A stretch of 64,000 nucleotides of DNA from Escherichia coli (GCF_965641715.1 NZ_OZ282453.1), one strand, 5' to 3'. Shown: positions 3,622 through 60,390, counted from the first letter of the stretch. Numbers and translations are program-made. The notes: generated by a model from the letters alone, not told the origin.

Positions 3622-3721
3622 TACTGCTCCTGAACGGTTTACAGGAGTAAGTGTAGACGGCGAAAAGAAAAAACCGCCAGCGTTTCCACTAGCGGTTTTC
3701 AATGTATTCAAAACTCAGCAA

Positions 3722-3928
3722 TCAGTAAAAATCACCGGTTGCCTTTTCGGCCTGATCCATCCAAACCGGTTTATCGCTGGTTTTCGACCAGACGCGATGC
3801 AGGTAGCTGTAAAAGCGGGCGCGGTCTTTCCAGAAAAGCATGAAAGGCAGCGCCAGAACGCCCGCTGCAACCGCATAAGTACGGCGTAAAAAGATAAGCC
3901 ATGCAGGATATTCTCTGTAGAGTTCCAT
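3722..3928 (-). CDS. ybfA: small DUF2517 membrane-associated protein (68 aa)
   Basis: 68-aa [19 protein letters not shown]... recognised as YbfA, divergent from kdpF. Confidence 0.8.
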
Positions 3929-4134
3929 ACTTTTCTCCCCCTTTTGTATCTACCCGGTGAATGGCACCGGAAAATGAATTTGTTTATCTGATGAAAATAG
4001 TACCGCCTTTTGTGTAATTTCACTACTCATCCGACCACTTATTTTTGCTTATTGATGGTTTATTTACATTCACCCTGTAATTAAGTTACACAAAAGTTAA
4101 ATTAATACTAAACATTAGTTAAATCATGGCTTTT

Positions 4135-4168
4135 GCCATTTTTATACTTTTTTTACACCCCGTCCGCA
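4135..4168 (+). promoter_or_regulatory. kdpFABC promoter-proximal KdpE operator (T-rich site)
   Basis: Sequence ttttatacttttttacaccccgtccg about 70 bp upstream of the kdpF start resembles the known KdpE-binding site; lies in an AT-rich divergent intergenic region. Confidence 0.5.
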
Positions 4169-4239
4169 GATTTTTGCGAAATCTTTGCAGCCAGAATTCT
4201 ACCCTTCCGGTATCACTTTTAGGCCACTGGAGGTGCACT

Positions 4240-4329
4240 GTGAGTGCAGGCGTGATAGCCGGCGTGTTGCTGGTGTTTTTATTACTGGGTTATCTGGTTT
4301 ATGCCCTGATCAATGCGGAGGCATTCTGA
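4240..4329 (+). CDS. kdpF: K+-transporting ATPase small subunit KdpF (29 aa, GTG start)
   Basis: In-frame GTG gives [29 protein letters not shown]; stop overlaps the kdpA ATG by 1 nt. Confidence 0.8.
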
Positions 4330-6002
4330 TGGCTGCGCAAGGGTTCTTACTGATTGCCACGTTTTTACTGGTATTAATGGTGCTGGCGCGTCCTTTAGGC
4401 AGCGGGCTGGCGCGGCTGATTAATGACATTCCTCTTCCAGGTACAGCGGGCGTTGAACGTATACTCTTTCGTTTACTTGGCGTCTCTGACCATGAGATGA
4501 ACTGGAAGCAATATCTTTGTGCCATTCTCGGCCTGAACATGCTGGGGCTGGCGGTGCTGTTTTTTATGTTGCTCGGTCAGCACTATCTGCCGCTTAATCC
4601 ACAGCAGTTGCCGGGGCTGTCGTGGGATCTGGCGCTCAATACCGCCGTCAGCTTTGTCACGAATACCAACTGGCAATCTTATAGCGGTGAAACCACGTTG
4701 AGCTATTTCAGCCAGATGGCGGGCTTAACGGTGCAAAACTTTCTTTCTGCCGCCAGCGGGATTGCGGTGATTTTTGCCCTCATTCGTGCATTTACCCGCC
4801 AGAGCATGAGCACACTCGGGAATGCCTGGGTCGATCTGCTACGCATCACGTTATGGGTGCTCGTCCCTGTGGCGTTGGTGATCGCACTGTTTTTTATTCA
4901 ACAAGGTGCGCTGCAAAACTTTCTGCCCTATCAGGCAGTGAATACCGTTGAAGGAGCGCAACAGCTGTTACCAATGGGTCCGGTGGCTTCTCAGGAAGCG
5001 ATCAAGATGCTCGGTACTAACGGCGGTGGCTTCTTTAATGCCAACTCGTCGCATCCGTTTGAAAACCCAACCGCACTGACCAACTTCGTGCAGATGCTGG
5101 CGATCTTCTTGATCCCAACAGCGCTGTGCTTTGCCTTTGGTGAAGTGACGGGCGATCGCCGCCAGGGGCGCATGTTGCTGTGGGCGATGTCAGTGATTTT
5201 TGTCATCTGCGTAGGCGTGGTGATGTGGGCAGAAGTTCAGGGTAATCCTCATCTGCTGGCGCTCGGCGCAGACAGCAGCATCAATATGGAAGGTAAAGAG
5301 AGCCGTTTCGGCGTGCTGGTCAGTAGCCTGTTTGCGGTCGTGACTACGGCGGCGTCCTGTGGCGCGGTGATTGCGATGCATGATTCGTTTACCGCTCTCG
5401 GTGGCATGGTGCCGATGTGGCTGATGCAAATTGGTGAAGTGGTATTCGGCGGTGTCGGTTCTGGTCTTTACGGCATGATGCTGTTTGTCCTGCTGGCGGT
5501 GTTTATTGCCGGGCTGATGATTGGTCGTACACCGGAATATCTGGGTAAAAAAATCGACGTACGTGAGATGAAACTGACTGCACTGGCGATTCTGGTCACC
5601 CCGACGCTGGTGCTGATGGGCGCGGCGCTGGCAATGATGACCGACGCCGGACGTAGCGCCATGCTCAACCCTGGCCCGCATGGTTTTAGCGAAGTGCTGT
5701 ACGCCGTGTCATCCGCCGCTAACAACAACGGCAGCGCCTTTGCCGGATTAAGCGCCAACTCTCCGTTCTGGAACTGTTTACTGGCGTTCTGCATGTTTGT
5801 CGGTCGCTTCGGAGTGATTATCCCGGTGATGGCAATTGCCGGTTCGCTGGTAAGTAAAAAGAGCCAACCCGCCAGCTCCGGCACGCTGCCAACGCACGGC
5901 CCGCTGTTTGTTGGCCTGTTAATCGGCACCGTGTTGCTGGTTGGCGCACTGACCTTTATCCCTGCCCTGGCGCTTGGTCCGGTGGCGGAATATCTCTCCT
6001 GA
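4329..6002 (+). CDS. kdpA: K+-transporting ATPase subunit A (557 aa)
   Basis: Internal Met [16 protein letters not shown] matches the KdpA N-terminus; the track ORF carries a 48-codon upstream extension. Confidence 0.95.
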
Positions 6003-6024
6003 TGATATTGAGTGAGCACTGAAT

Positions 6025-8073
6025 ATGAGTCGTAAACAACTGGCGCTATTCGAACCAACACTTGTCGTTCAGGCGCTGAAAGAAGCGGTGAAAAAATTAA
6101 ACCCGCAGGCGCAATGGCGCAATCCGGTGATGTTTATCGTCTGGATCGGCAGTCTGCTGACCACCTGTATTAGCATCGCGATGGCAAGCGGCGCGATGCC
6201 TGGCAATGCGCTGTTTAGCGTGGCCATTAGCGGCTGGCTGTGGGTCACCGTACTGTTCGCTAATTTCGCCGAGGCGCTGGCAGAAGGCCGCAGTAAAGCG
6301 CAGGCCAACAGCCTGAAAGGGGTGAAAAAAACTGCTTTTGCTCGCAAGCTGCGCGAACCGAAATATGGCGCTGTGGCAGACAAAGTTCCTGCCGATCAAC
6401 TGCGTAAAGGTGACATCGTGCTGGTAGAAGCTGGCGATATTATCCCCTGCGATGGTGAAGTCATTGAAGGCGGCGCATCGGTCGATGAAAGCGCCATCAC
6501 CGGGGAATCGGCACCGGTGATCCGTGAATCCGGTGGCGATTTTGCCTCCGTCACTGGCGGCACGCGTATTCTTTCTGACTGGCTGGTGATTGAGTGTAGC
6601 GTTAACCCCGGCGAGACATTTCTGGATCGGATGATCGCGATGGTGGAAGGCGCACAGCGACGTAAAACGCCGAACGAGATTGCCCTGACCATCCTGCTGA
6701 TTGCCCTGACTATCGTCTTTTTACTGGCAACCGCCACGCTGTGGCCGTTTTCCGCGTGGGGCGGTAATGCAGTCAGTGTAACGGTACTGGTGGCGCTGCT
6801 GGTCTGTCTGATCCCAACCACTATTGGCGGCCTGTTGTCAGCGATCGGCGTCGCCGGGATGAGTCGGATGCTGGGCGCGAATGTGATTGCCACCAGCGGA
6901 CGTGCAGTTGAAGCGGCGGGTGACGTTGACGTCCTGCTGCTGGATAAAACCGGCACCATCACACTCGGTAACCGTCAGGCGTCGGAGTTTATCCCCGCGC
7001 AGGGCGTGGATGAAAAAACGCTGGCTGACGCCGCACAACTGGCTTCGCTGGCTGATGAAACGCCGGAAGGCCGCAGTATTGTGATCCTCGCCAAGCAGCG
7101 TTTTAACCTGCGCGAGCGCGATGTGCAGTCGCTCCATGCCACCTTTGTACCGTTTACTGCGCAAAGCCGGATGAGCGGGATCAACATCGACAACCGCATG
7201 ATCCGTAAAGGTTCTGTCGATGCCATTCGCCGCCATGTTGAGGCTAACGGTGGTCACTTCCCTGCCGATGTTAATCAAAAAGTCGATCAGGTTGCGCGTC
7301 AGGGGGCCACGCCGCTGGTGGTGGTGGAAGGTTCTCGTGTGCTGGGCGTTATTGCGCTGAAAGATATCGTTAAAGGCGGCATTAAAGAACGCTTCGCGCA
7401 ACTGCGCCAAATGGGCATTAAAACGGTGATGATTACCGGCGATAACCGTCTGACTGCCGCCGCCATTGCCGCGGAAGCGGGTGTCGATGATTTTCTCGCC
7501 GAAGCGACACCAGAGGCCAAGCTGGCATTGATCCGTCAGTATCAGGCGGAAGGCCGTTTGGTGGCGATGACCGGCGATGGCACCAACGATGCTCCGGCGC
7601 TGGCGCAAGCAGATGTCGCGGTGGCGATGAACTCTGGTACTCAGGCGGCGAAAGAAGCGGGCAATATGGTGGATCTCGACTCTAACCCGACCAAGTTGAT
7701 CGAGGTGGTGCATATTGGCAAACAGATGCTGATGACCCGTGGCTCGCTGACCACCTTCAGCATTGCCAACGATGTGGCGAAATACTTCGCCATTATTCCG
7801 GCGGCGTTCGCGGCAACGTATCCGCAGTTAAATGCGCTGAACATCATGCGCCTGCATTCGCCCGACTCCGCCATTCTCAGTGCGGTGATTTTCAACGCCT
7901 TGATTATCGTCTTTTTGATTCCCCTGGCGTTAAAAGGCGTGAGTTATAAACCGCTTACCGCTTCTGCCATGTTGCGCCGTAACTTATGGATTTACGGTCT
8001 GGGTGGGCTGCTGGTGCCGTTTATTGGTATCAAAGTCATTGATTTACTGCTGACCGTTTGCGGTCTGGTGTGA
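6025..8073 (+). CDS. kdpB: K+-transporting P-type ATPase catalytic subunit B (682 aa)
   Basis: P-type ATPase motifs DKTGTIT and TGDGTNDAP present in the ORF. Confidence 0.96.
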
Positions 8074-8081
8074 GGTTTACC

Positions 8082-8654
8082 ATGAGTGGATTACGTCCGG
8101 CATTATCGACATTTATCTTTCTGTTATTGATTACTGGCGGCGTTTACCCGCTGCTGACCACCGCGCTGGGGCAATGGTGGTTTCCCTGGCAGGCCAACGG
8201 TTCGTTGATCCGTGAAGGTGATACGGTGCGCGGTTCGGCATTAATCGGGCAGAATTTTACCGACAACGGCTATTTTCAGGGTCGCCCGTCGGCAACGGCA
8301 GAAATGCCCTATAATCCACAGGCTTCTGGCGGGAGCAATCTGGCAGTCAGTAACCCCGAGCTGGATAAACAGATAGCCGCACGCGTTGCCGCATTACGGG
8401 CCGCTAACCCGGATGCCAGCACGAGCGTTCCGGTTGAACTGGTGACGGCATCGGCAAGCGGGCTGGACAATAACATCACCCTACAAGCGGCGGCCTGGCA
8501 GATCCCACGCGTAGCGAAAGCGCGTAATCTCAGCGTTGAACAGCTCACGCAACTGATCGCAAAATACAGCCAACAACCACTGGTGAAATATATCGGCCAG
8601 CCGGTCGTCAACATTGTCGAACTCAATCTGGCGCTGGATAAACTTGATGAATAA
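8082..8654 (+). CDS. kdpC: K+-transporting ATPase subunit C (190 aa)
   Basis: Internal Met [16 protein letters not shown] matches the KdpC N-terminus. Confidence 0.9.
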
Positions 8655-14640: not shown

Positions 14641-15186
14641 TTAGATAGTTCCGCAAACCTTCTCAATCAATTCCGCCGGGAATTGCATCGACTGCATGAT
14701 GTGTTCGATCATGCTGCATTTACGGCCGGTGTTGGTGTTGGTGATCACCCAATACGGCGTGCCTGGCACATGTTTCGGCTTGGTCTGATTACCATTTTTC
14801 AGCAGCGTTTGTTCATCTGCCGCAAAGTAAACGCGTGTACGACCGTGCAACGATTCCGTTGCTTCGGCAAACGCCTGGGCGTCAAGAGAATATAGTGTAG
14901 ACAACAGCAGCATAAAGCGATTGACCGCTCGCTTTTGCTCTGCGTATTCATCCGAAAGCAGAAGTTCACGCATTGCGCGAACCTTGTCTTTAATCGTTTT
15001 GACCGGCTTCGCTTCGACGATAGCAGGTGACGCAACGCGAACCTCTTTCGTCACCGGAGCAGCAGGCTGTGATGCGGCGGAAAATTTCAACATACGCCGT
15101 AAAATGTCGGATGCGCTCTCGCCGATATGCTTAGTGTGGCTGGCAATATAGCTGTAGAGTTCATCATCAACTTCAATCGTTTTCAT
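14641..15186 (-). CDS. seqA: negative modulator of replication initiation SeqA (181 aa)
   Basis: Internal Met [18 protein letters not shown] matches the SeqA N-terminus; 25 bp upstream of pgm (seqA-pgm operon). Confidence 0.9.
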
Positions 15187-15370
15187 CTTAATCCAGTGCA
15201 GTGTCTTAGCTGAATACAAGTCGCCAGGAGTATATGAATAAATCCCGGCAGCGGATAGCGTCAAGCCTGGCTTGCAGAAAAACTCGGAATAAACCTTATT
15301 TGTTGCAGCCCTGTGGCACAATGGTCAACATAATACCCTAACCCGACAACGCGAAAAAAAGAACTTTGCC

Positions 15371-16135
15371 ATGAAATTGAATATCCGCGCGCAAACTGCA
15401 CAAAACCAGCACAATAATTCTCCCATCGTTCTTGTCCATGGTCTGTTTGGCAGCCTCGACAACCTTGGCGTACTGGCTCGCGATCTGGTAAACGATCACA
15501 ATATCATCCAGGTTGATATGCGTAACCACGGTCTTTCACCGAGAGATCCGGTAATGAATTACCCGACGATGGCGCAGGATCTTGTTGATACCCTGGATGC
15601 ACTGCAGATCGACAAAGCAACATTTATCGGTCACTCCATGGGCGGTAAAGCGGTAATGGCACTTACTGCACTGGCCCCCGATCGCATCGATAAACTGGTG
15701 GCGATCGATATCGCACCGGTCGACTATCACGTACGCCGTCATGATGAGATTTTCTCGGCTATCAACGCGGTCAGTGAATCGGACGCACAAACTCGCCAGC
15801 AAGCAGCAGCAATAATGCGCCAGCATCTTAATGAAGAAGGGGTGATTCAGTTTCTGTTGAAATCTTTTGTTGACGGGGAGTGGCGCTTTAACGTGCCGGT
15901 ATTGTGGGATCAGTATCCGCATATTGTGGGTTGGGAGAAAATCCCGGCATGGGATCACCCTGCCCTGTTTATCCCTGGTGGTAATTCTCCGTATGTTAGC
16001 GAGCAGTACCGTGATGATTTACTGGCACAATTTCCACAGGCACGGGCGCATGTGATTGCAGGCGCGGGTCACTGGGTCCATGCTGAAAAACCGGATGCGG
16101 TATTACGCGCTATCCGTCGCTATCTCAATGATTAA
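15371..16135 (+). CDS. ybfF: alpha/beta-hydrolase esterase YbfF (254 aa)
   Basis: GHSMGG nucleophile elbow; full-length ORF. Confidence 0.9.
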   Translation: MKLNIRAQTAQNQHNNSPIVLVHGLFGSLDNLGVLARDLVNDHNIIQVDMRNHGLSPRDPVMNYPTMAQDLVDTLDALQIDKATFIGHSMGGKAVMALTALAPDRIDKLVAIDIAPVDYHVRRHDEIFSAINAVSESDAQTRQQAAAIMRQHLNEEGVIQFLLKSFVDGEWRFNVPVLWDQYPHIVGWEKIPAWDHPALFIPGGNSPYVSEQYRDDLLAQFPQARAHVIAGAGHWVHAEKPDAVLRAIRRYLND

Positions 16136-16274
16136 CGCAACTGATTAAAAACCCAGCGTCCGCGTCGCTTTCCGCGCGTGGGCGTTGGCGTGACTCATCG
16201 CGCTGATGTATTATGGCGCGCTATCCATCCGGGCAGAGGCCTGGCTGATTGTTTCCCCCGAAGTCACCAAGATC

Positions 16275-16568
16275 ATGGCCAAAGAACAAACGGACCGTAC
16301 GACATTAGATCTGTTCGCGCACGAGCGTCGACCGGGACGACCGAAAACTAATCCGCTTTCGCGCGATGAACAGCTGCGTATTAATAAACGCAACCAACTA
16401 AAACGCGACAAAGTACGTGGCCTTAAGCGTGTCGAACTGAAGCTGAACGCGGAAGCTGTCGAGGCGCTGAACGAGCTGGCGGAATCGCGCAATATGAGCC
16501 GTAGCGAACTGATCGAAGAGATGTTAATGCAGCAACTGGCGGCGCTGCGTAGTCAGGGCATCGTTTAA
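16275..16568 (+). CDS. ybfE: small DNA-damage-inducible protein YbfE (97 aa from internal Met)
   Basis: Start at MAKEQTDRTT by recognised length; basic helical protein. Confidence 0.75.
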   Translation: MAKEQTDRTTLDLFAHERRPGRPKTNPLSRDEQLRINKRNQLKRDKVRGLKRVELKLNAEAVEALNELAESRNMSRSELIEEMLMQQLAALRSQGIV

Positions 16569-52526: not shown

Positions 52527-54197
52527 ATGGATAATGCAGAACTCGCCATTGGTATCGATCTCGGTACTACCAATAGTTTAATTGCCGTCTGGAAAGACGG
52601 TGCCGCGCAATTAATTCCAAATAAGTTCGGTGAATATTTAACACCATCCATAATTAGCATGGATGAAAATAATCATATTTTAGTCGGAAAACCGGCTGTA
52701 TCACGGCGCACTTCGCATCCGGATAAAACGGCAGCGTTATTTAAACGTGCAATGGGCAGTAATACCAACTGGCGGTTAGGCAGCGACACATTTAACGCGC
52801 CAGAACTGTCCTCTTTGGTATTACGCTCATTAAAAGAAGATGCCGAAGAATTTCTGCAACGTCCGATTAAAGATGTGGTGATCTCTGTTCCGGCTTATTT
52901 CAGCGATGAACAACGCAAGCATACCCGTTTAGCAGCGGAGTTAGCCGGTTTAAATGCGGTACGCTTAATTAATGAACCCACAGCAGCTGCGATGGCGTAT
53001 GGCCTGCATACCCAACAAAATACCCGTTCGCTGGTGTTTGATCTCGGTGGCGGCACGTTTGACGTTACGGTGCTTGAGTACGCCACGCCGGTGATTGAAG
53101 TTCACGCCTCCGCTGGCGACAACTTCCTCGGTGGCGAAGATTTTACCCATATGCTGGTCGATGAGGTTTTAAAACGCGCGGATGTCGCCAGGACCACGCT
53201 TAACGAGAGTGAACTGGCAGCCTTGTATGCCTGTGTGGAAGCGGCAAAATGTAGCAATCAATCGCCAATGCACATTCGCTGGCAGTACCAGGATGAAACG
53301 CGGGAATGCGAATTTTACGAGAACGAACTGGAAGATTTGTGGTTGCCGCTGCTCAATCGCTTGCGAGTGCCGATTGAACAGGCGTTGCGCGATGCGCGTC
53401 TGAAGCCGAGTCAAATCGACAGTCTGGTGCTGGTTGGCGGCGCGTCACAAATGCCGCTGGTGCAGCGAATCGCCGTGCGTCTGTTTGGCAAATTACCGTA
53501 TCAAAGTTACGATCCGAGCACCATTGTCGCGCTGGGCGCAGCAATCCAGGCTGCCTGCCGCTTACGCAGTGAAGATATTGAAGAAGTGATCCTCACTGAT
53601 ATTTGCCCTTACTCGTTGGGCGTTGAGGTTAACCGTCAGGGCGTTTCCGGCATTTTCTCGCCGATTATTGAACGAAACACCACTGTGCCCGTGTCGCGTG
53701 TAGAAACTTATTCAACCATGCACCCGGAACAGGATTCAATTACGGTTAACGTCTATCAGGGAGAAAACCACAAAGTTAAAAACAACATTCTGGTGGAATC
53801 CTTCGATGTGCCGTTGAAGAAAACCGGGGCTTATCAGTCGATTGATATTCGCTTTAGTTATGATATCAACGGTTTGCTTGAAGTTGACGTGCTTCTGGAA
53901 GACGGCAGCGTTAAGTCCAGAGTGATTAACCACAGCCCGGTAACATTGAGCGCGCAGCAGATTGAAGAGAGTCGGACGCGGTTATCCGCATTGAAAATTT
54001 ATCCGCGCGATATGCTCATCAATCGTACCTTTAAAGCCAAACTGGAAGAGTTGTGGGCGCGGGCGCTGGGTGACGAGCGAGAAGAGATTGGCCGGGTGAT
54101 CACCGATTTTGATGCGGCGCTGCAGTCAAACGATATGGCCCGCGTCGATGAGGTCAGGCGGCGGGCGAGCGTTTATTTAGCCATTGAGATCCCATAA
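52527..54197 (+). CDS. hscC: Hsp70-family chaperone HscC (556 aa)
   Basis: Hsp70 ATPase signatures (IGIDLGTTNS, DLGGGTFD); no long C-terminal lid. Confidence 0.95.
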   Translation: MDNAELAIGIDLGTTNSLIAVWKDGAAQLIPNKFGEYLTPSIISMDENNHILVGKPAVSRRTSHPDKTAALFKRAMGSNTNWRLGSDTFNAPELSSLVLRSLKEDAEEFLQRPIKDVVISVPAYFSDEQRKHTRLAAELAGLNAVRLINEPTAAAMAYGLHTQQNTRSLVFDLGGGTFDVTVLEYATPVIEVHASAGDNFLGGEDFTHMLVDEVLKRADVARTTLNESELAALYACVEAAKCSNQSPMHIRWQYQDETRECEFYENELEDLWLPLLNRLRVPIEQALRDARLKPSQIDSLVLVGGASQMPLVQRIAVRLFGKLPYQSYDPSTIVALGAAIQAACRLRSEDIEEVILTDICPYSLGVEVNRQGVSGIFSPIIERNTTVPVSRVETYSTMHPEQDSITVNVYQGENHKVKNNILVESFDVPLKKTGAYQSIDIRFSYDINGLLEVDVLLEDGSVKSRVINHSPVTLSAQQIEESRTRLSALKIYPRDMLINRTFKAKLEELWARALGDEREEIGRVITDFDAALQSNDMARVDEVRRRASVYLAIEIP

Positions 54198-54199
54198 TC

Positions 54200-54245
54200 A
54201 CGGCTGCCGGATGCGGCGTAAATGCTGCATCCGGCATCGGCGCAA
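54200..54245. repeat. REP-like palindrome between convergent hscC and djlC
   Basis: cggctgccggatgcggcgtaaatgctgcatccggcatcggcgc. Confidence 0.6.
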
Positions 54246-54256
54246 AAAACACATCG

Positions 54257-55708
54257 TCAACTAAACACCATCGCGATTTTGCCGAGAGCATAACCTATCA
54301 CCAGCACCGTTAAGCTGATTTTGATAATGCTGGTAATGCTCTGTGGTTTTTCATCCTCATCATTTTTTTCTTCATGGTTTTCAGGTATTGGCTCATCGAC
54401 ATCTTCATCCCCCGGCTCGAGTTTCACTTTCGTCAACAGCATCCGGGTGATAATGGCCTCTAATGGATGAGCATCTCCACCTTCCAGCCTTGTATTAAGA
54501 CGGGCCAGCATCTCTTGTTTCGGAAACGCTTCAAGTACTACCTGTTCCGCTACCCGATACAAATCCAGTAACGGTGAATCTTCTTCTGTCTCGCTACCGA
54601 CTCTCGATTTCCACCACGCCCATGCTTTGCGTTTGAAGAATAGCGACTCAATAAACGATTGACCTAACGGCGATAATTTTCCGCTATGTAAAATTTCCGC
54701 CCATAACAGCCGCGTCCGGGCGCTCTCACCAGGAACATATTTCAGCGGTTGACCTTGCGCATCTACCATGCTCCGCGCTTCGATAACCATCACTAATAAC
54801 GCGAAATAATCCGGGCAATGACGCTTGCTCCACTGCAACAACAAATTATCAGCTTGTGTAGATGGGTAACTTCCCCAGTACGCGCAGAGATCGGCAAGCA
54901 GGCTTTCCCCCTCGCCGCAGTACAAACGTTGTGCACACTGGTAATACCGGGCATCTTCGCTTTCTGGTTCTTCCGTTTGCCACTGTTGGGCAACAGGAAT
55001 GAGTTCCGCCATACCTGTTTGCACCGAGCTGTACCAGCGCAACAGTTTGCGATGTAACTTTGCATCATCAGGAATGAACCACGGACCTTCCATCGCCAAA
55101 AACGCAGTGACATAGTCAGGATGGTAATGGCAGCAACGTTCCAGCGCGAAGTAATATTCAACAGTCTGGTTCTGCAACGCAACGGGATATTCCAGAAGGC
55201 CAAGGAAATCGAAACAATCACCAGCCTGAATGGCCTCAAGAAAAGCCTCCCTTTCTTCCTCATCTATTCCTTCGCTGTCATTAAACGAATGCCAGTTCAA
55301 ACGCTCTGCCAGCAAAGAAGCACAATTTAATGAAAGATATCGCGCTTCTATAGCGATTGCACACAGCGGCCAGCGTAATTGATCGACATCCTCCATGTTC
55401 CAGGTATTTAATTGCTGAATAAATTTCTGCCAGGCGGAAGGCTGAAAACGATCACTTTCTGAATCCAGTAATGTCCTGAATGCACGTAGTATTTCATGTT
55501 CAGCGGCGGCATCTTTTTCTTCATCATCTGCTTCCTCGACAGGATTTACCGCCAGTCGCAGCGCCTCTTCATAGGCCTGGCGTAATGCTTTAAACCCCTG
55601 CGGATCGGTTTCGGGATGACATAACGGTAAGCGAGCAAGATAAGCCTGGCGGATAATGTCTATTTGCGTCGTGCTTTCAATTTCGAGGATTTGCCAACAT
55701 GTTTTCAT
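54257..55708 (-). CDS. djlC: J-domain-like co-chaperone of HscC, tail-anchored (483 aa)
   Basis: N-terminal J-like segment ([33 protein letters not shown]); C-terminal hydrophobic helix ([25 protein letters not shown]). Confidence 0.9.
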
Positions 55709-56412
55709 AGGTCGCTCACATCCTTAAGCGTTACCGGGCATTCAGGCTGGACAGTTAATGGCTGCCAGGGAAGCGTGGCATAGAAACGATCGCTTCCCGC
55801 TGCCAGTTCTTCGAACATACGACTCCCGGCGCTATCGTATTTGTACAGGGTTAGCGCCTCGCGTAGCGAAGTGTTGTCTTCGCACTGAGAAGATTGCCAG
55901 TAGAGACGCCCTAGTGAATAGGCAGAAAAATAGTGCATCCAGCTGTGATAGTAATGGTGAGCTCGTACATAGACGCGCGATTGCAGCCATAAACTCTCGT
56001 CTTCCGTCAGCCACTTGTTGAGCACACCGACCCGTGACAGAAACCCCATTCGAACATAATCCCAAGCTTTGATTCCCCCTTCTCCACAGCACATAGCGGT
56101 TTGGGCAACGAATTGGGTATAAATCAACCCTCTCTCCGAGCCACCAGCAATTAATGCTTTCCACTCTTCAGGGGAAGAGCGATGCCATGTCAGATATAAG
56201 CCAGCTAAATCATTAGCATGACCATCATCAGTCATCTGATAAATAGTCTGAATTAAATCATCACGATTATTTATTCCCCAGGATGATGAGAGATCGAATT
56301 CTTTTATCCCGGTATACATTTTTGGCGAGTCATGCGCGGGTTTGCAACCCTGATTAAGTATTTCCATGGGCGCAGAAAGCGCAAAAAGAAGATATTGTTC
56401 TTCCTTATTCAT
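55705..56412 (-). CDS. ybeU: DUF1266 protein (235 aa), paralog of YbeR
   Basis: 4-nt overlap with djlC; high similarity to the 58501-59208 ORF. Confidence 0.88.
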
Positions 56413-56512
56413 TTGTTAATAATCCCTTAAATGCATTAACTGACTACTTTTTATTATTGATGAGTATAAACTTGACGCTTTCAAAATAAAAAGAAAATCG
56501 AAGCATTCACAC

Positions 56513-57067
56513 ATGAATAAAAAATTAATGTATATATTCGCAATTTTTATAGTTGCAGCAATTACCTGTATTAGCCAACCCAAGAAAACGACGTTGCGTG
56601 ATAAAGCCATGGTGAATTATGCCTTTGATTATTTAAGCTCACCGGGCAGTCTTCCATTCACCACGGCAGCCACGGAGCTTTCCGCGATTCATGGTCACTC
56701 AACGTCGCAATATCGCCTTGGAGAATTTTATCTTCATGGTAGCGACGGTAAACCACTGGATTATACACAGGCGAGATACTGGTATGAGCAATCAGCGGAA
56801 CAGGAAAATCCACGCGCGCAAAGTAAACTGGGGTGGATCTACCTCAAAGGTCTGGGGGTCAAACCCGACACCCGTAAAGCAATTCTCTGGTATAAGGAAG
56901 CAGCTGAACAAGGGTATGCTCATGCTCAATATACTTTAGGTTTGATCTACAGAAATGGCTCAGGTATTAATGTTAACCATTATGAATCTCAAAAATGGTT
57001 AAAACTGGCCGCCAAACAACATTACAAAAATGCGGAAAGATTACTTGCCGGGCTTCCCGCACATTAA
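56513..57067 (+). CDS. ybeT: Sel1-repeat protein with N-terminal signal/anchor (184 aa)
   Basis: Repeated Sel1/TPR-like units ([18 protein letters not shown] etc.). Confidence 0.88.
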
Positions 57068-57076
57068 CGTCGACTG

Positions 57077-58504
57077 TCACCCGAACAGATGGAGTATTTT
57101 CCCTATCAAACCAGCAAAGATAAAAATATAGAAAATAATTTTAATGATGCCCAGACAGCCTGGCCCACCATCGTCAACGGGCATTGGCTGCGGTTGCGGC
57201 TCCGGTTCAACAGTTTGCTTCTCGGTAAAATTCGCCGCCTGAATTAATAATCGACGAATAATTAATGCTTCCAGTGGACAACGATCTTCTGCATCAAGAC
57301 GGCTTACAATCGGCATTAATGATTCTTCTGTAGGTTGGCTGGCCTGCACTAATTGTTTGGCAACTAGATATAATGGCCATAAGGTATGTTCTGTATCACG
57401 CTTGAGTGAGATCCGCGGCTTACGTCCTTTGTGCAAAACCATCTCGACCAGTGAACGCCCCAGAGCAGAGAGTTTTTCATCGCTGAGTATTTCGTATAAA
57501 TGAAAACGCGTACGGGCGCTGTCGCCGGGGATATAAAGTAGCGGTTTTCCCTGATCGTTAACCAGTTCGCGAGCTTCAATCATCATCACCACTAATGGGT
57601 AATAATCGACTCGATGCTGACGGCACCATTGCAACATTAAAGCATCCGCCTGAGTGGAGGGATACTCGTGCCAGTAGTCACAAAGTTCTGCCAGCAGGCT
57701 TTCGCCTTCTCCACAATAGACGCGTTGCGCGTATTCATAATAACGCGCATCTTCATTATCAGGTTCAGCTTCCCGCCACGACCGGGCGTAATCCAGGAGT
57801 TCGGGAATTCCCAGGCGACCTGCGCTATACCAGCGGAGTAAATTTCTGTGCAGTTTTGCATCATCGGGGATAATCACTGCGCGATGTTGCGCTAAATACA
57901 ATGTCAGCCATTCTGGATGCGATGACCAAATCCGAGCGAACATTTGGTAAAAATCGATGGTGTCATTTTGCACGGCAACGGGCAGATGCAGAATGGTCTG
58001 GAAGTTAAAAACATTCCCCTTCGCAATGGCATATAAAAAGGATTCCAGTTCTTCTTCGTCTATTTCCCCGACGTTTTCCTCCTGCAACCACCGCAATCTT
58101 TCTGCTAATAACACCACGCACTCGAAGGATAAATGGGCAGTGTTCATGGCGATTGTGCACAGCGACCAGCGTAATTCATCAATCTCTTCCATCGAGCAAT
58201 AATTTAATTGCTGAATGAATCGCTGCCAGGCGGAGGGCAGAAAACGTTCGCTATCAGAGGCAAGTAACGCACGAAAGGCGAGCAGAATTTCATGTTCTGC
58301 TACCTCATATTCTTCTGGTTGCCAAACAGATTTAGCAGGCGACTGCGCAATCCGTAGCGCCTCCTCATACGCCTGACGAAGTTGTTTAAAACCCTGCGGA
58401 TCGGTTTCTGGATGAAAGGACGGTAACAGCGCCAGATAAGCGCGGCGGATAATATCGACGTCAGTCGTTTCCTCTATGTTGAGGATCTTCCAGCAATTTT
58501 TCAT
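57077..58504 (-). CDS. djlB: J-domain-like co-chaperone of HscC, tail-anchored (475 aa), paralog of DjlC
   Basis: N-terminus [50 protein letters not shown]; C-terminal hydrophobic tail. Confidence 0.9.
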
Positions 58505-59208
58505 AGGTCGCTCATATCCTTAAGCGTTTCCGGGCATGTGGGGTAGTCAGCCAGTGGTTGCCAGGGTAAGGTCGCGTAATATGCATCGTCACTGGCAAAT
58601 AATTGATAAAACATATCATTGCCGGAATCGTCGTATTCTTTACGCGCTAAGAATTCACGTAATAAAGGCAGATTATCATCTTCGGGAGACTGCCAATATT
58701 GCCGACCAAAGGTATAACCGGCAAAGTATTGCCGCCAGTTACTATAATAACGTAGAGCCCGTAGATGAATACGCGACTGGATCCATAGACTTTCTTCTTC
58801 ACTCAACCAGTTATTAAGTACGCCCATTCGACTTAAAAAACCCATCCGGACATAATCCCATGCTTTAATTCCTCCCTCACCACAGCATTCGGCTGTGCTG
58901 GCGACAAATTGCGCATAAGCCTGACCTTGCTCATTTAATTCAGCAAGATAGTCACGCCATTCACATGGAGAATAACGAAACCAGCGGTGATAAAACCCTG
59001 CCAACCGCGCGGCATGACCGTTATCGATCATTCGGTGAATTGTGCGCAGCAGGTCATCACGGTCATCAATTCCCCAGGAGGAAGAAAGGTCAAAAAAGCG
59101 TGTACCTAAATACATTTTGGGTGATGAATGCGAAGGTAAACAGCATTCATTGCGTATTTCCATCGGAGTGGAAAGTGCAAACAATATTTTTTTCGACTCC
59201 ATGTCCAT
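58501..59208 (-). CDS. ybeR: DUF1266 protein (235 aa), paralog of YbeU
   Basis: 4-nt overlap with djlB. Confidence 0.88.
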
Positions 59209-59365
59209 ATAATTTATCCTTAAACATTCATTTAATGAATGTAAACTACATTACGAGGCTCATTTATTTATACTTTTCTGACACAACATAATACGCATAA
59301 AATAAGACTTACGCAAAAACGGAACACATAAAAATATAATATGTTTTATCTGCAACCATAAGGAA

Positions 59366-60349
59366 ATGATAATGATTTTTACGTCAAGTTGCTGCGATAA
59401 TTTGTCAATAGATGAGATTATCGAACGTGCTGAACAAGGCGATAGTGAGGCTCAATATATTGTTGGGTTTTATTATAATCGCGATAGCGCAATTGACTCT
59501 CCGGACGACGAAAAGGCCTTTTACTGGCTGAAGCTGGCCGCTGAGCAAGGTCATTGTGAAGCACAGTATTCCTTAGGGCAAAAGTATACCGAGGATAAAA
59601 GCCGTCATAAAGATAATGAGCAAGCCATCTTCTGGCTGAAAAAAGCTGCCCTACAAGGCCATACTTTCGCTTCCAACGCCCTTGGCTGGATACTGGATCG
59701 TGGAGAAGACCCCAACTATAAAGAAGCGGTTGCCTGGTATCAGATAGCCGCGGAGAGCGGAATGTCTTATGCGCAAAATAATCTTGGGTGGATGTACAGA
59801 AATGGCAACGGAGTCGCACAAGACTATACGCTGGCATTTTTCTGGTACAAACAAGCTGCATTACAAGGCCATAGTGACGCGCAAAACAATCTGGCCGATC
59901 TTTATGAAGACGGAAAAGGCGTTGCTCAAAACAAGACACTCGCCGCATTCTGGTATTTGAAAAGCGCACAGCAGGGTAATCGGCATGCTCAGTTTCAAAT
60001 TGCATGGGATTATAACGCTGGCGAAGGGGTGGACCAGGACTATAAGCAAGCGATGTACTGGTATCTGAAGGCTGCCGCTCAGGGGAGCGTCGGCGCTTAC
60101 GTCAACATCGGTTATATGTATAAACACGGACAAGGCGTTGAGAAAGATTATCAGGTTGCCTTTGAATGGTTTACGAAAGCCGCTGAATGCAATGACGCCA
60201 CTGCCTGGTATAACCTGGCCATTATGTATCACTACGGAGAAGGAAGACCTGTCGATCTCCGACAGGCTCTCGACCTGTATCGTAAAGTTCAGTCATCCGG
60301 AACCAGAGATGTCAGTCAGGAAATTCGTGAGACTGAAGATTTACTGTAG
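59366..60349 (+). CDS. ybeQ: Sel1-repeat protein (about 325-327 aa; start may be 2 codons downstream)
   Basis: Seven or more Sel1-like repeats (AQYxLGxxYxxGxGVxxD). Confidence 0.85.
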   Translation: MIMIFTSSCCDNLSIDEIIERAEQGDSEAQYIVGFYYNRDSAIDSPDDEKAFYWLKLAAEQGHCEAQYSLGQKYTEDKSRHKDNEQAIFWLKKAALQGHTFASNALGWILDRGEDPNYKEAVAWYQIAAESGMSYAQNNLGWMYRNGNGVAQDYTLAFFWYKQAALQGHSDAQNNLADLYEDGKGVAQNKTLAAFWYLKSAQQGNRHAQFQIAWDYNAGEGVDQDYKQAMYWYLKAAAQGSVGAYVNIGYMYKHGQGVEKDYQVAFEWFTKAAECNDATAWYNLAIMYHYGEGRPVDLRQALDLYRKVQSSGTRDVSQEIRETEDLL

Positions 60350-60359
60350 AGATAAAAAC

Positions 60360-60390
60360 AAGGGCCGGGGAATTTCATTCGGCCCATATT
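60360..60390. terminator. bidirectional hairpin between convergent ybeQ and ybeL
   Basis: gggccggggaatttcattcggccc. Confidence 0.5.

What the first reader, a model, noticed from the sequence alone, without database searches (positions are those of the whole stretch)
52527..60349. Tandemly duplicated three-gene module next to hscC
Downstream of the Hsp70 homolog hscC there are two copies of the same unit: a tail-anchored J-domain-like protein (djlC, djlB), a 4-nt-overlapping DUF1266 protein (ybeU, ybeR), and a divergent Sel1-repeat protein (ybeT, ybeQ). Paralogs are clearly similar along their whole length. DjlB/DjlC are known as HscC co-chaperones, but the DUF1266 and Sel1 partners have no defined function. 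A conserved Hsp70 / J-protein / DUF1266 / Sel1 arrangement suggests a dedicated chaperone-client or membrane-targeting system.
Basis: partly seen in the sequence, partly recalled or inferred. Interest (0 to 1): 0.5.

Follow-up and report, generated by a model that had tools for sequence, protein, structure and literature searches.

The report
HscC chaperone cassette with DUF1266 partners
Next to the minor E. coli Hsp70 HscC lie two old copies of a two-gene unit, a membrane-anchored J-protein and a protein of unknown function (DUF1266); this J-protein/DUF1266/HscC trio recurs in every related genome locus examined, which points to the unstudied DUF1266 protein as the missing third part of the HscC machine.

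Summary

**What is duplicated.** The duplicated unit has two genes, not three.
- DjlC and DjlB are 54% identical. YbeU and YbeR are 60% identical. Both pairs align end to end, and both have an ATGA start/stop overlap.
- YbeT and YbeQ share only generic Sel1-repeat similarity. They differ in length and in predicted compartment.
- ybeT is missing from the Salmonella and Citrobacter loci examined, although both carry both modules plus a ybeQ ortholog.

**Co-occurrence.**
- In 78 species-representative genome loci and 9 further look-ups (several metagenomic), DUF1266 is followed by a Djl-type J-protein and an HscC-type Hsp70 wherever the contig allows. A Bacillus mycoides plasmid carries the same trio in the order HscC, J-protein, DUF1266.
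- 70 of 77 DUF1266/Djl junctions have the 4-nt overlap.
- HscC loci whose J-protein lacks the Djl central domain also lack DUF1266.

**Structure and variants.**
- The DjlC model is a J-domain with an HPE motif, a TPR-like solenoid and a tail anchor.
- The YbeU model is an all-helical fold with no solved relative.
- Elsewhere, Sel1 or TPR repeats are fused to the Djl protein.

**Most likely reading.** This is a three-part specialised Hsp70 machine in which DUF1266 is the Djl-bound client or adaptor. In E. coli the locus is accessory and is reported to be silenced by H-NS. The mechanism is inferred, not shown.

The parts
52527..54197 (+). hscC: specialised Hsp70 (556 aa), the ATPase motor of the cassette
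   Evidence: Pfam HSP70 E 2.3e-116. RefSeq name HscC. dN/dS 0.02 against E. whittamii.
54257..55708 (-). djlC: J-domain with HPE motif (aa 1-55), TPR-like helical solenoid (about aa 70-430) and a C-terminal tail anchor
54281..54337 (-). DjlC tail-anchor transmembrane helix (aa 458-476)
   Evidence: Hydropathy 1.85. AF2 helix 458-482. Membrane insertion reported by Peschke 2018, as cited in PMC8215388.
55705..56412 (-). ybeU: DUF1266 protein (235 aa), all-helical fold with no solved relative; partner of DjlC
55705..55708 (-). ATGA overlap of the ybeU stop and the djlC start (translational coupling)
   Evidence: Sequence CGACCTATGAAAA. The same 4-nt overlap occurs at 70 of 77 junctions in other genomes.
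56413..56512 (.). AT-rich divergent promoter region between ybeU-djlC and ybeT (27% GC)
   Evidence: Composition. ybeT and ybeU-djlC are reported as SlyA-induced and H-NS-repressed (PMC5797941).
56513..57067 (+). ybeT: short Sel1-repeat protein (184 aa, 3 repeats) with an N-terminal hydrophobic signal or anchor. Seen only in the Escherichia loci, not in the Salmonella, Citrobacter or Klebsiella loci examined. Not a whole-length paralog of ybeQ.
   Evidence: Pfam Sel1. N-terminal TM-like segment aa 5-23. Absent from the Salmonella and Citrobacter loci. Repeat-level identity only.
57077..58504 (-). djlB: paralog of djlC (475 aa) with the same architecture
   Evidence: 54% identity to DjlC. HPE motif and C-terminal TM aa 449-467.
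57104..57160 (-). DjlB tail-anchor transmembrane helix (aa 449-467)
   Evidence: Hydropathy 2.39.
58501..59208 (-). ybeR: DUF1266 protein (235 aa), paralog of ybeU; partner of DjlB
   Evidence: Pfam PF06889 162 bits. 60% identity to YbeU.
58501..58504 (-). ATGA overlap of the ybeR stop and the djlB start
   Evidence: Sequence CGACCTATGAAAA.
59209..59365 (.). AT-rich divergent promoter region between ybeR-djlB and ybeQ (26% GC)
   Evidence: Composition.
59366..60349 (+). ybeQ: Sel1-repeat protein (327 aa, 8 repeats) with no signal sequence. It keeps this position in Salmonella and Citrobacter.
   Evidence: Pfam Sel1 E 9e-67. Orthologs 50-61% identical at the same position.

Best explanation
The region is a self-contained accessory cassette that encodes a specialised three-part Hsp70 machine.

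**The core found across lineages**
- HscC is the ATPase motor.
- A Djl-type co-chaperone carries an N-terminal J-domain with the unusual HPE motif, then a TPR-like helical solenoid, then a variable C-terminal module. That module can be a tail anchor, a DUF805-like multi-TM domain, Sel1 repeats or TPR repeats.
- A DUF1266 protein is translated in step with the Djl protein through an ATGA overlap.

**What E. coli has**
- The DUF1266-Djl pair was duplicated long ago, before Escherichia, Salmonella and Citrobacter split.
- One HscC is therefore served by two alternative targeting modules, YbeU-DjlC and YbeR-DjlB.
- YbeQ is a Sel1 accessory seen only in the enteric lineages examined. It may supply in trans the repeat module that other lineages fuse to Djl.
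- YbeT is a later, probably exported, addition seen only in Escherichia.

**Proposed working (inferred)**
- DUF1266 docks on the TPR-like domain of its cognate Djl at the cytoplasmic face of the inner membrane.
- The J-domain triggers ATP hydrolysis in HscC. This step was shown in vitro for DjlC by Kluck 2002.
- HscC then clamps and remodels DUF1266, or a protein that DUF1266 holds. HscB handing IscU to HscA is the closest parallel.

**Expression in E. coli**
- The locus is reported to be silenced by H-NS.
- It has been lost from part of the population.
For: **Gene order**
- DUF1266 is followed by Djl and an HscC-type Hsp70 in 9 of 9 look-ups of relatives 25-41% identical to YbeU.
- The same holds in all 78 species-representative genome loci wherever the contig extends far enough.
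- These loci come from Pseudomonas, Erwinia, Rahnella, Pectobacterium, Gilliamella, Marinobacter, Bowmanella, Klebsiella and Escherichia.
- A Bacillus mycoides plasmid has the order HscC, J+TPR protein, DUF1266.

**Translational coupling**
- 70 of 77 junctions have the 4-nt overlap and 4 more have a 1-nt overlap.

**Specific covariation**
- HscC loci in Ralstonia, P. oryzihabitans and Eleftheria have J-proteins that share only the J-domain with Djl.
- Those J-proteins have non-HPE motifs, and no DUF1266 lies within 6 kb.
- In 72,556 plasmids, the Djl central domain hits 11 records. All 11 are among the 14 records hit by DUF1266.

**The pair behaves as a unit**
- The pair has duplicated independently in L008 and L090.
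- YbeU orthologs stay with DjlC orthologs, and YbeR orthologs with DjlB orthologs, in Salmonella and Citrobacter.
- The DUF1266 and Djl trees both recover the YbeU/DjlC (module b) clade; the module-a Djl sequences are not resolved as one clade.

**Structure**
- Djl relatives carry Pfam-detectable TPR or Sel1 repeats.
- More distant DUF1266 domains are fused to TPR repeats in cis.

**Selection**
- All seven genes are under purifying selection, dN/dS 0.02-0.13.

**Literature**
- DjlC stimulates the HscC ATPase.
- The djlB djlC double mutant and the hscC mutant share Cd2+ sensitivity (PMC8215388).
Against: - No physical or genetic evidence links DUF1266 to Djl or HscC. The argument rests on gene context, and the complex could not be modelled here.
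- Outside the YbeU-like branch, DUF1266 domains occur without any Hsp70 or J-protein. Examples are L100, Devosia, Streptomyces and Bacteroidales. The domain is therefore not intrinsically a chaperone part.
- HscC and both Djl proteins are below the detection limit in growing E. coli (PMC8215388).
- The locus is missing from about a fifth of E. coli genomes.
Confidence: 0.55

Rival explanations
1. A three-gene module (J-protein, DUF1266, Sel1) was duplicated in tandem. On this view YbeT and YbeQ are diverged paralogs that each serve their own module.
For: - Gene order and orientation are the same in both units.
- Both divergent intergenic regions are similarly AT-rich.
- Sel1 repeats are fused to Djl in L090.
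Against: - Salmonella and Citrobacter have both modules in direct tandem with no ybeT between them.
- K. spallanzanii has one module and no Sel1 gene.
- YbeT/YbeQ identity equals generic inter-repeat identity.
- YbeT has a signal-like N-terminus and YbeQ has none.
Confidence: 0.12
2. DUF1266 is a cofactor of HscC itself, for example a nucleotide-exchange or release factor. That would complete a DnaK/DnaJ/GrpE-like triad.
For: - Hsp70 operons commonly encode three parts.
- HscC lacks the GrpE-binding signature (PMC8215388).
- DUF1266 is all-helical, as several exchange factors are.
Against: - DUF1266 tracks the Djl central domain, not HscC. HscC loci with other J-proteins lack it.
- DUF1266 domains occur without any Hsp70.
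- The fold does not match GrpE, BAG or armadillo-type exchange factors.
- HscC is expected to release nucleotide quickly without help (PMC8215388).
Confidence: 0.1
3. The cassette is a conflict system in which DUF1266, and perhaps the Sel1 proteins, bind incoming protein toxins or other foreign proteins. Djl-HscC then neutralises them. Alternatively, HscC is a growth-arresting effector held in check by the other parts.
For: - DUF1266 genes lie in a same-strand array annotated with Imm5 and PoNe immunity genes in Bacteroides.
- The Bacillus trio is flanked by IS6 elements and sits next to CDI, PoNi and SUKH immunity genes.
- Presence is patchy across E. coli.
- H-NS silencing is reported.
- HscC overexpression is reported to arrest growth, and HscC is reported to bind sigma-70 (PMC3861889).
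Against: - There are no real PADLOC hits to the seven proteins, only two sub-threshold matches of the Sel1 proteins to PtuA.
- Neighbours of the cassette in 18 loci are housekeeping genes.
- Nothing was found in 2.9 million viral contigs.
- The locus has kept one chromosomal position across Escherichia, Salmonella, Citrobacter and Klebsiella.
- Purifying selection is strong and shows no sign of diversifying change.
Confidence: 0.08
4. In E. coli the cassette is a silenced, decaying remnant with no present role, and the conserved order reflects history only.
For: - The proteins are below the detection limit.
- A DUF1266 gene rises 308-fold in an hns mutant.
- The whole island is absent from about 19% of complete genomes, and module 2 from a further 12%.
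- Many ybeU alleles are truncated.
Against: - dN/dS is 0.02-0.13 for all seven genes against E. whittamii.
- Intact orthologs are kept in three genera.
- Deletion phenotypes are reported for hscC and for djlB djlC.
Confidence: 0.1

Closest known systems
HscA-HscB-IscU (the Fe-S cluster Hsp70 system of E. coli)
   Same: - It is a specialised Hsp70 with an exclusive J-protein.
- It has a single dedicated partner protein encoded in the same gene cluster.
- It does not rely on GrpE.
   Different: - HscB has no TPR-like solenoid or membrane anchor.
- IscU is a known scaffold with a defined Hsp70-binding motif (LPPVK). DUF1266 has no known activity or motif.
- A client role for DUF1266 is inferred only.
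HscC-DjlB/DjlC as described by Kluck et al. 2002 (via PMC8215388)
   Same: These are the same genes. DjlC stimulates HscC, the HPE motif is present, the Djl proteins are tail-anchored, and mutants are Cd2+ and UV sensitive.
   Different: The published description has two components. The translationally coupled DUF1266 partner, the TPR-like nature of the Djl middle region and the Sel1/TPR-fused variants are not mentioned in any paper found here.
Eukaryotic TPR-plus-J co-chaperones (DNAJC3/p58IPK, DNAJC7/TPR2)
   Same: A J-domain is joined to a TPR solenoid that holds a partner or client for an Hsp70. The DjlC model matches Sti1/HOP and other TPR domains.
   Different: - The domain order is reversed, with J at the N-terminus here.
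- Djl proteins carry a membrane anchor.
- Sequence similarity is confined to the J-domain.
- No separate obligate partner gene is known for the eukaryotic proteins.
DUF1266 (Pfam PF06889) family at large
   Same: YbeU and YbeR are strong members, at 154 and 162 bits.
   Different: - Only the YbeU-like branch is tied to Djl and HscC.
- Other branches are fused to TPR, Cu_amine_oxidN1, peptidase M54 or DUF4352.
- Still others sit after ankyrin-repeat genes in Bacteroidales arrays.

Membership tests
Hsp70 / HscC subfamily | Full-length Hsp70 architecture (nucleotide-binding plus substrate-binding domain), about 550-580 aa | tested here: met
   Pfam HSP70 E 2.3e-116 over aa 86-539, with MreB_Mbl over aa 7-339; 556 aa. 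It scores below the NCBIfam DnaK and HscA cut-offs, as expected for a third type.
Hsp70 / HscC subfamily | ATPase stimulated only by its own J-protein | not testable with these tools
   Reported by Kluck 2002, as cited in PMC8215388.
J-domain proteins | J-domain fold with an HPD tripeptide between helices II and III | tested here: inconclusive
   - Pfam DnaJ scores 18.7 and 22.4 bits, below the 27.8 cut-off.
- The motif is HPE, not HPD, in DjlC, DjlB and 80 relatives.
- The AF2 helices 16-29 and 36-54 flank it as a J-domain should.
- HPE is described as a tolerated variant (PMC13254874, PMC10410713).
Tail-anchored membrane proteins | Single transmembrane helix within about 30 residues of the C-terminus and no signal peptide | tested here: met
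   TM at aa 458-476 of 483 (DjlC) and aa 449-467 of 475 (DjlB). Relatives in other genera instead have 1-4 TMs or none.
TPR-like helical solenoid | Stacked helix-turn-helix repeats | tested here: met
DUF1266 (PF06889) | Match to the family profile above the gathering score | tested here: met
   154.2 and 162.4 bits against a cut-off of 27.
Sel1 repeat proteins (PF08238) | Tandem Sel1 repeats of about 36 residues | tested here: met
   YbeT has 3 repeats, E 1e-30. YbeQ has 8 repeats, E 9e-67.
Tandem three-gene duplication | All three gene pairs are whole-length paralogs that arose in one event | tested here: not met
   - Two pairs pass.
- YbeT/YbeQ show repeat-level similarity only.
- ybeT is absent from the Salmonella and Citrobacter loci, which have both modules.
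Known anti-phage defence systems (PADLOC) | Match to a defence-protein model | tested here: not met
   No hit for HscC, either Djl or either DUF1266. The Sel1 proteins gave only sub-threshold noise. Neighbours are not defence genes.
Hsp70 nucleotide-exchange factors (GrpE, BAG, HspBP1/Sil1, Hsp110) | Fold or sequence similarity to a known exchange factor | tested here: not met

The most novel reading that the evidence does not exclude
DUF1266 is an immunity-type binding module for foreign or toxic proteins. On this reading the HscC-Djl-DUF1266 cassette is a chaperone-powered neutralisation system. DUF1266, with Sel1/TPR repeats, captures a specific incoming protein at the inner membrane, and the J-domain recruits HscC to unfold or extract it. 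The two paralogous modules would give two specificities.

This rests on four observations:
- DUF1266 genes lie in a Bacteroides array annotated with Imm5 and PoNe immunity genes.
- The Bacillus trio sits next to CDI, PoNi and SUKH immunity genes between IS6 copies.
- The island has a patchy distribution in E. coli.
- The island is reported to be silenced by H-NS.
Probability: 0.08. Interest if true: 0.85.

Novelty: new variant of a known kind. Interest (0 to 1): 0.5.

Why it matters
HscC is the least understood of the three E. coli Hsp70s. Since 2002 it has had a co-chaperone and two weak phenotypes, but no client and no pathway.

Showing that a DUF1266 protein always travels with, and is translated in step with, the Djl-type co-chaperone gives a concrete candidate for the missing client or adaptor. 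That turns a vague question into simple experiments: binding, ATPase assays and double deletions.

The work also does three other things:
- It reclassifies DjlB and DjlC as J-plus-TPR proteins.
- It explains the nearby Sel1 genes as a possible detached version of a module that other bacteria fuse to Djl.
- It gives the first context for a family with no known function, DUF1266, which a full-text search found in only one paper.

If the link to immunity-gene arrays holds, the system would be a new kind of chaperone-based protection.

Tried and rejected
**Searches that found nothing useful**
- PADLOC scan of the seven proteins gave no real hits.
- A profile search of PDB sequences with DUF1266 found nothing.
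- A Foldseek search of AFDB could not be run because the library was unavailable.
- Profile-profile comparison of DUF1266 with Djl showed no homology, probability 0.9%.
- The promoter and terminator consensus scan of the island found fewer sites than in shuffled sequence, so it was uninformative.
- NCBIfam has no models for Djl or DUF1266.

**Context tests**
- I tested for a defence-island or metal-resistance context by scanning 107 neighbour proteins from 18 loci. Only housekeeping families came up.
- Metal transporters do sit next to the HscC pairs that lack DUF1266. I left this as a side note.
- A viral-contig scan found nothing.
- The two 'phage' records with DUF1266 are fragments of 1.5 and 2.6 kb, most likely host DNA.

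**Technical limits**
- The first genome scan with a 50-sequence alignment failed because it had no conserved stretch. It was repeated with a closer set, so the 78 loci are biased towards the YbeU-like branch.
- The metagenome scan for the Bacteroidales branch returned only closely related gut loci, so it could not test the immunity idea independently.
- A complex model of YbeU with DjlC could not be assessed.

Full report
**What is there**

The window is E. coli DNA with the gene order gltIJKL, rihA, hscC, djlC, ybeU, ybeT, djlB, ybeR, ybeQ, ybeL, leuS. The seven genes of the finding sit exactly at the stated coordinates.

- ybeU overlaps djlC by four bases, and ybeR overlaps djlB by four bases. 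Both junctions read CGACCTATGAAAA.
- DjlC and DjlB each have one hydrophobic helix at the extreme C-terminus.
- Pfam finds HSP70 in HscC, DUF1266 in YbeU and YbeR, and Sel1 repeats in YbeT and YbeQ.
- Pfam finds only a sub-threshold DnaJ match in the two Djl proteins.
- The Djl J-domain motif is HPE rather than HPD. This variant is already noted in the literature (PMC10410713, PMC13254874).

**Is it a tandem duplication of three genes?**

Two of the three pairs are unmistakable paralogs along their whole length.
- DjlC/DjlB are 54% identical, E 8e-159.
- YbeU/YbeR are 60% identical, E 2e-107.
- Synonymous sites between the copies are saturated, so the duplication is old.

The third pair fails the test.
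- YbeT has 184 aa, three repeats and a signal-like N-terminus. YbeQ has 327 aa, eight repeats and no such segment.
- They align only repeat against repeat.
- Their mean repeat identity, 30.8%, equals the identity among YbeQ's own repeats, 31.2%.

Comparative loci settle the matter.
- Salmonella and Citrobacter have, at the same chromosomal site, a ybeQ ortholog, then two DUF1266-Djl pairs in direct tandem, then a convergent hscC. There is no ybeT.
- The pair next to hscC is orthologous to ybeU-djlC. The pair next to ybeQ is orthologous to ybeR-djlB.
- Klebsiella spallanzanii has one pair and no Sel1 gene, again next to ybeL and leuS.

So the duplicated unit is the two-gene pair. ybeQ is an accessory shared by the three enteric genera. 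ybeT is either an Escherichia gain or a loss in the Salmonella-Citrobacter lineage.

**Co-occurrence elsewhere**

An exhaustive HMMER search found 367 cluster representatives related to YbeU.
- All nine look-ups of stand-alone relatives, at 25-41% identity, showed DUF1266 adjacent to a Djl-type J-protein.
- Six of the nine also showed an HscC-type Hsp70 of 556-567 aa. In L008, L091 and L092 the fetched stretch ends inside the Djl gene.

A scan of one genome per species returned 78 loci. They come from Pseudomonas, Erwinia, Rahnella, Pectobacterium, Gilliamella, Marinobacter, Bowmanella, Klebsiella and Escherichia.
- My ORF and phmmer annotation found DUF1266, then Djl, then Hsp70 in every locus whose contig reached far enough. 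There were no counter-examples.
- Seventy of 77 DUF1266/Djl junctions have the 4-nt overlap and four more have a 1-nt overlap.

A Bacillus mycoides plasmid carries HscC, a J+TPR protein and DUF1266 between two IS6 copies.
- That J-protein matches the Djl profile over positions 1-298, E 4e-36, and has the HPE motif.
- The trio therefore crosses phyla.

The pair has also duplicated independently in two other lineages, L008 and L090.

**What DUF1266 tracks**

HscC-type genes on Ralstonia, Pseudomonas oryzihabitans and Eleftheria replicons are each followed by a J-protein.
- Those J-proteins share only the J-domain with the Djl profile.
- They carry RPD or degenerate motifs.
- No DUF1266 lies within 6 kb.

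In the plasmid collection, the Djl central domain hits 11 records. All 11 are among the 14 records hit by the YbeU-like DUF1266 query.

DUF1266 therefore covaries with the Djl middle region and the HPE motif, not with HscC as such.

**Structures**

The YbeU model is confident (pLDDT 94.7) and all-helical.
- It has no sequence match in the PDB.
- Nearly invariant residues across the family include W45, H65, G113, W117, D118, R121, R127, E139, W158, Y161, G168, W172 and W216.
- The C-terminal tail, LPW..L....[RK]P.[ST]L.E..WS, is conserved up to the C-terminus within the YbeU-like branch.

The DjlC model (pLDDT 84.8) has four parts: a J-domain, a disordered linker, a long helical region and the tail helix.

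This fits the relatives in which Pfam sees the repeats directly.
- L093 and the Bacillus protein carry TPR repeats.
- Both Djl proteins of L090 carry 4-5 Sel1 repeats at the C-terminus and have no membrane segment.
- In the other gammaproteobacterial genera examined (Pseudomonas, Erwinia, Rahnella, Pectobacterium, Gilliamella, Marinobacter) the Djl protein is about 880-930 aa. It has one or more C-terminal TM helices and, in several cases, a weak DUF805 match.
- The short single-anchor form was seen only in Escherichia, Salmonella, Citrobacter and Klebsiella.

More distant DUF1266 domains are fused in cis to TPR repeats and to other domains. One such TPR-DUF1266 protein stands alone, without any Hsp70 or J-protein nearby.

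**Most likely working**

- *Shown in the literature.* DjlC stimulates the HscC ATPase, while DnaJ, CbpA and HscB do not. DjlC is inserted into the inner membrane as a tail-anchored protein. hscC and djlB djlC mutants are both Cd2+ sensitive (PMC8215388).
- *Shown here.* DUF1266 is an invariable, translationally coupled companion of the Djl-type co-chaperone, and the Djl middle region is TPR-like.
- *Inferred.* DUF1266 binds that solenoid and is either the dedicated client or the specificity subunit that HscC acts on. The closest parallel is HscB presenting IscU to HscA. Two pairs would give one HscC two targets or sites of action. YbeQ may provide in trans the Sel1 module that L090 has in cis.

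I put the functional association at about 0.9 and the specific mechanism at about 0.5.

**State of the locus in E. coli**

- The island has 46.9% GC, against 52.3% for the rest of the window. Its two divergent promoter regions have 26-27% GC.
- ybeT and ybeU-djlC are reported as H-NS-repressed and SlyA-induced (PMC5797941).
- A DUF1266 gene of strain 042 rises 308-fold in an hns mutant at 25 C (PMC7582179).
- Of 5,426 complete genomes, 4,368 carry hscC-djlC-ybeU and 3,706 carry djlB-ybeR. Some strains have rihA directly next to ybeL.
- All seven genes nevertheless evolve under purifying selection, dN/dS 0.02-0.13.

**Rivals**

- *Exchange-factor role for DUF1266.* This is unlikely because the domain follows Djl rather than HscC and occurs without any Hsp70.
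- *Defence or immunity role.* This is the most novel reading that remains open.
  - For: a Bacteroides plasmid has two DUF1266 genes in a same-strand array annotated with Imm5, PoNe-immunity and ankyrin genes. The Bacillus trio lies beside CDI, PoNi and SUKH immunity genes. HscC overproduction is reported to arrest growth, and HscC is reported to bind sigma-70 (PMC3861889).
  - Against: there are no defence-model hits, neighbours are housekeeping genes, nothing turned up in viral contigs, and the locus has stayed at one chromosomal site across genera.
  - The Bacteroidales loci recovered from metagenomes confirmed only a recurrent ankyrin-DUF1266 pairing.

**Novelty**

- The genes, the HscC-DjlB/C partnership, the HPE motif and the tail anchor are all known.
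- A 2019 paper even notes that YbeQ, YbeR, YbeS, YbeU and YbeV form one cassette in Salmonella (PMC6935094).
- I found no description of the following:
  - the cross-phylum trio with DUF1266;
  - its covariation with the Djl middle domain;
  - the TPR-like nature of that domain;
  - the Sel1/TPR-fused variants.

I therefore rate this a new variant of a known kind, of moderate interest.

Noticed in passing
L102 (Bacteroides finegoldii plasmid NZ_OY725934.1) 5623-7438; also L109, L115, L126, L155, L170: In gut Bacteroidales, two DUF1266 genes in tandem follow two ankyrin-repeat genes in long same-strand arrays. In the annotated plasmid the neighbours are labelled Imm5 and PoNe immunity proteins, which suggests a polymorphic-toxin immunity array.
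   Followed up: partly
L096 (Ralstonia), L098 (P. oryzihabitans), L099 (Eleftheria), L003: HscC-type genes paired with non-Djl, multi-TM J-proteins lie next to metal transporters: Nramp, the cop operon and CopD. L003, which does carry the DUF1266-Djl pair, has DUF1007/NicO genes next to its Hsp70. This echoes the reported Cd2+ sensitivity of hscC mutants.
   Followed up: partly
L094 (Salmonella) 15082-16320: Salmonella has an extra 412-aa gene between hscC and rihA. It has no Pfam match and no counterpart in the E. coli window.
   Followed up: partly
L012 (Escherichia sp. MOD1-EC7003) 3648-5003: Two Djl-like ORF fragments (93 and 344 aa) lie beyond ybeQ. They may be the remnant of a third module.
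   Followed up: no
window 55705-56412 (ybeU) and one search hits P0028-P0037: Many E. coli assemblies encode truncated YbeU variants of about 193 aa that are near-identical to the full protein over the first 63%. This points to recurrent inactivation of the gene.
   Followed up: no
L001 (E. coli AR_0055) 6179-6644; one search hit H10: A common E. coli variant has a deletion that removes djlB, ybeR and the 5' part of ybeQ. Another variant has an IS1 at the site. About 660 complete genomes keep module 1 but lack module 2.
   Followed up: partly
L016 ('Paenibacillus sp. USDA918EY' contig end): A ybeU fragment 99% identical to E. coli sits at the end of a Paenibacillus contig. This is most likely assembly contamination.
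   Followed up: no
L101 (Vibrio tritonius plasmid) 5935-8283: A DUF1266 gene and a J-protein with the HPE motif (516 aa, no TM) are followed directly by an ISAs1 transposase, with no HscC gene. The cassette is probably truncated by the insertion.
   Followed up: no
window 60362-60385: A GC-rich hairpin followed by a T-rich run lies in the 69-bp gap between the convergent ybeQ and ybeL genes. It is a likely shared terminator.
   Followed up: no
loci L019-L089 (Pseudomonas): In 41 loci the 3' ends of the convergent Djl and HscC genes overlap, which is an unusually tight convergent arrangement. Pseudomonas HscC proteins end in a conserved ALDELR[LYF] tail.
   Followed up: no
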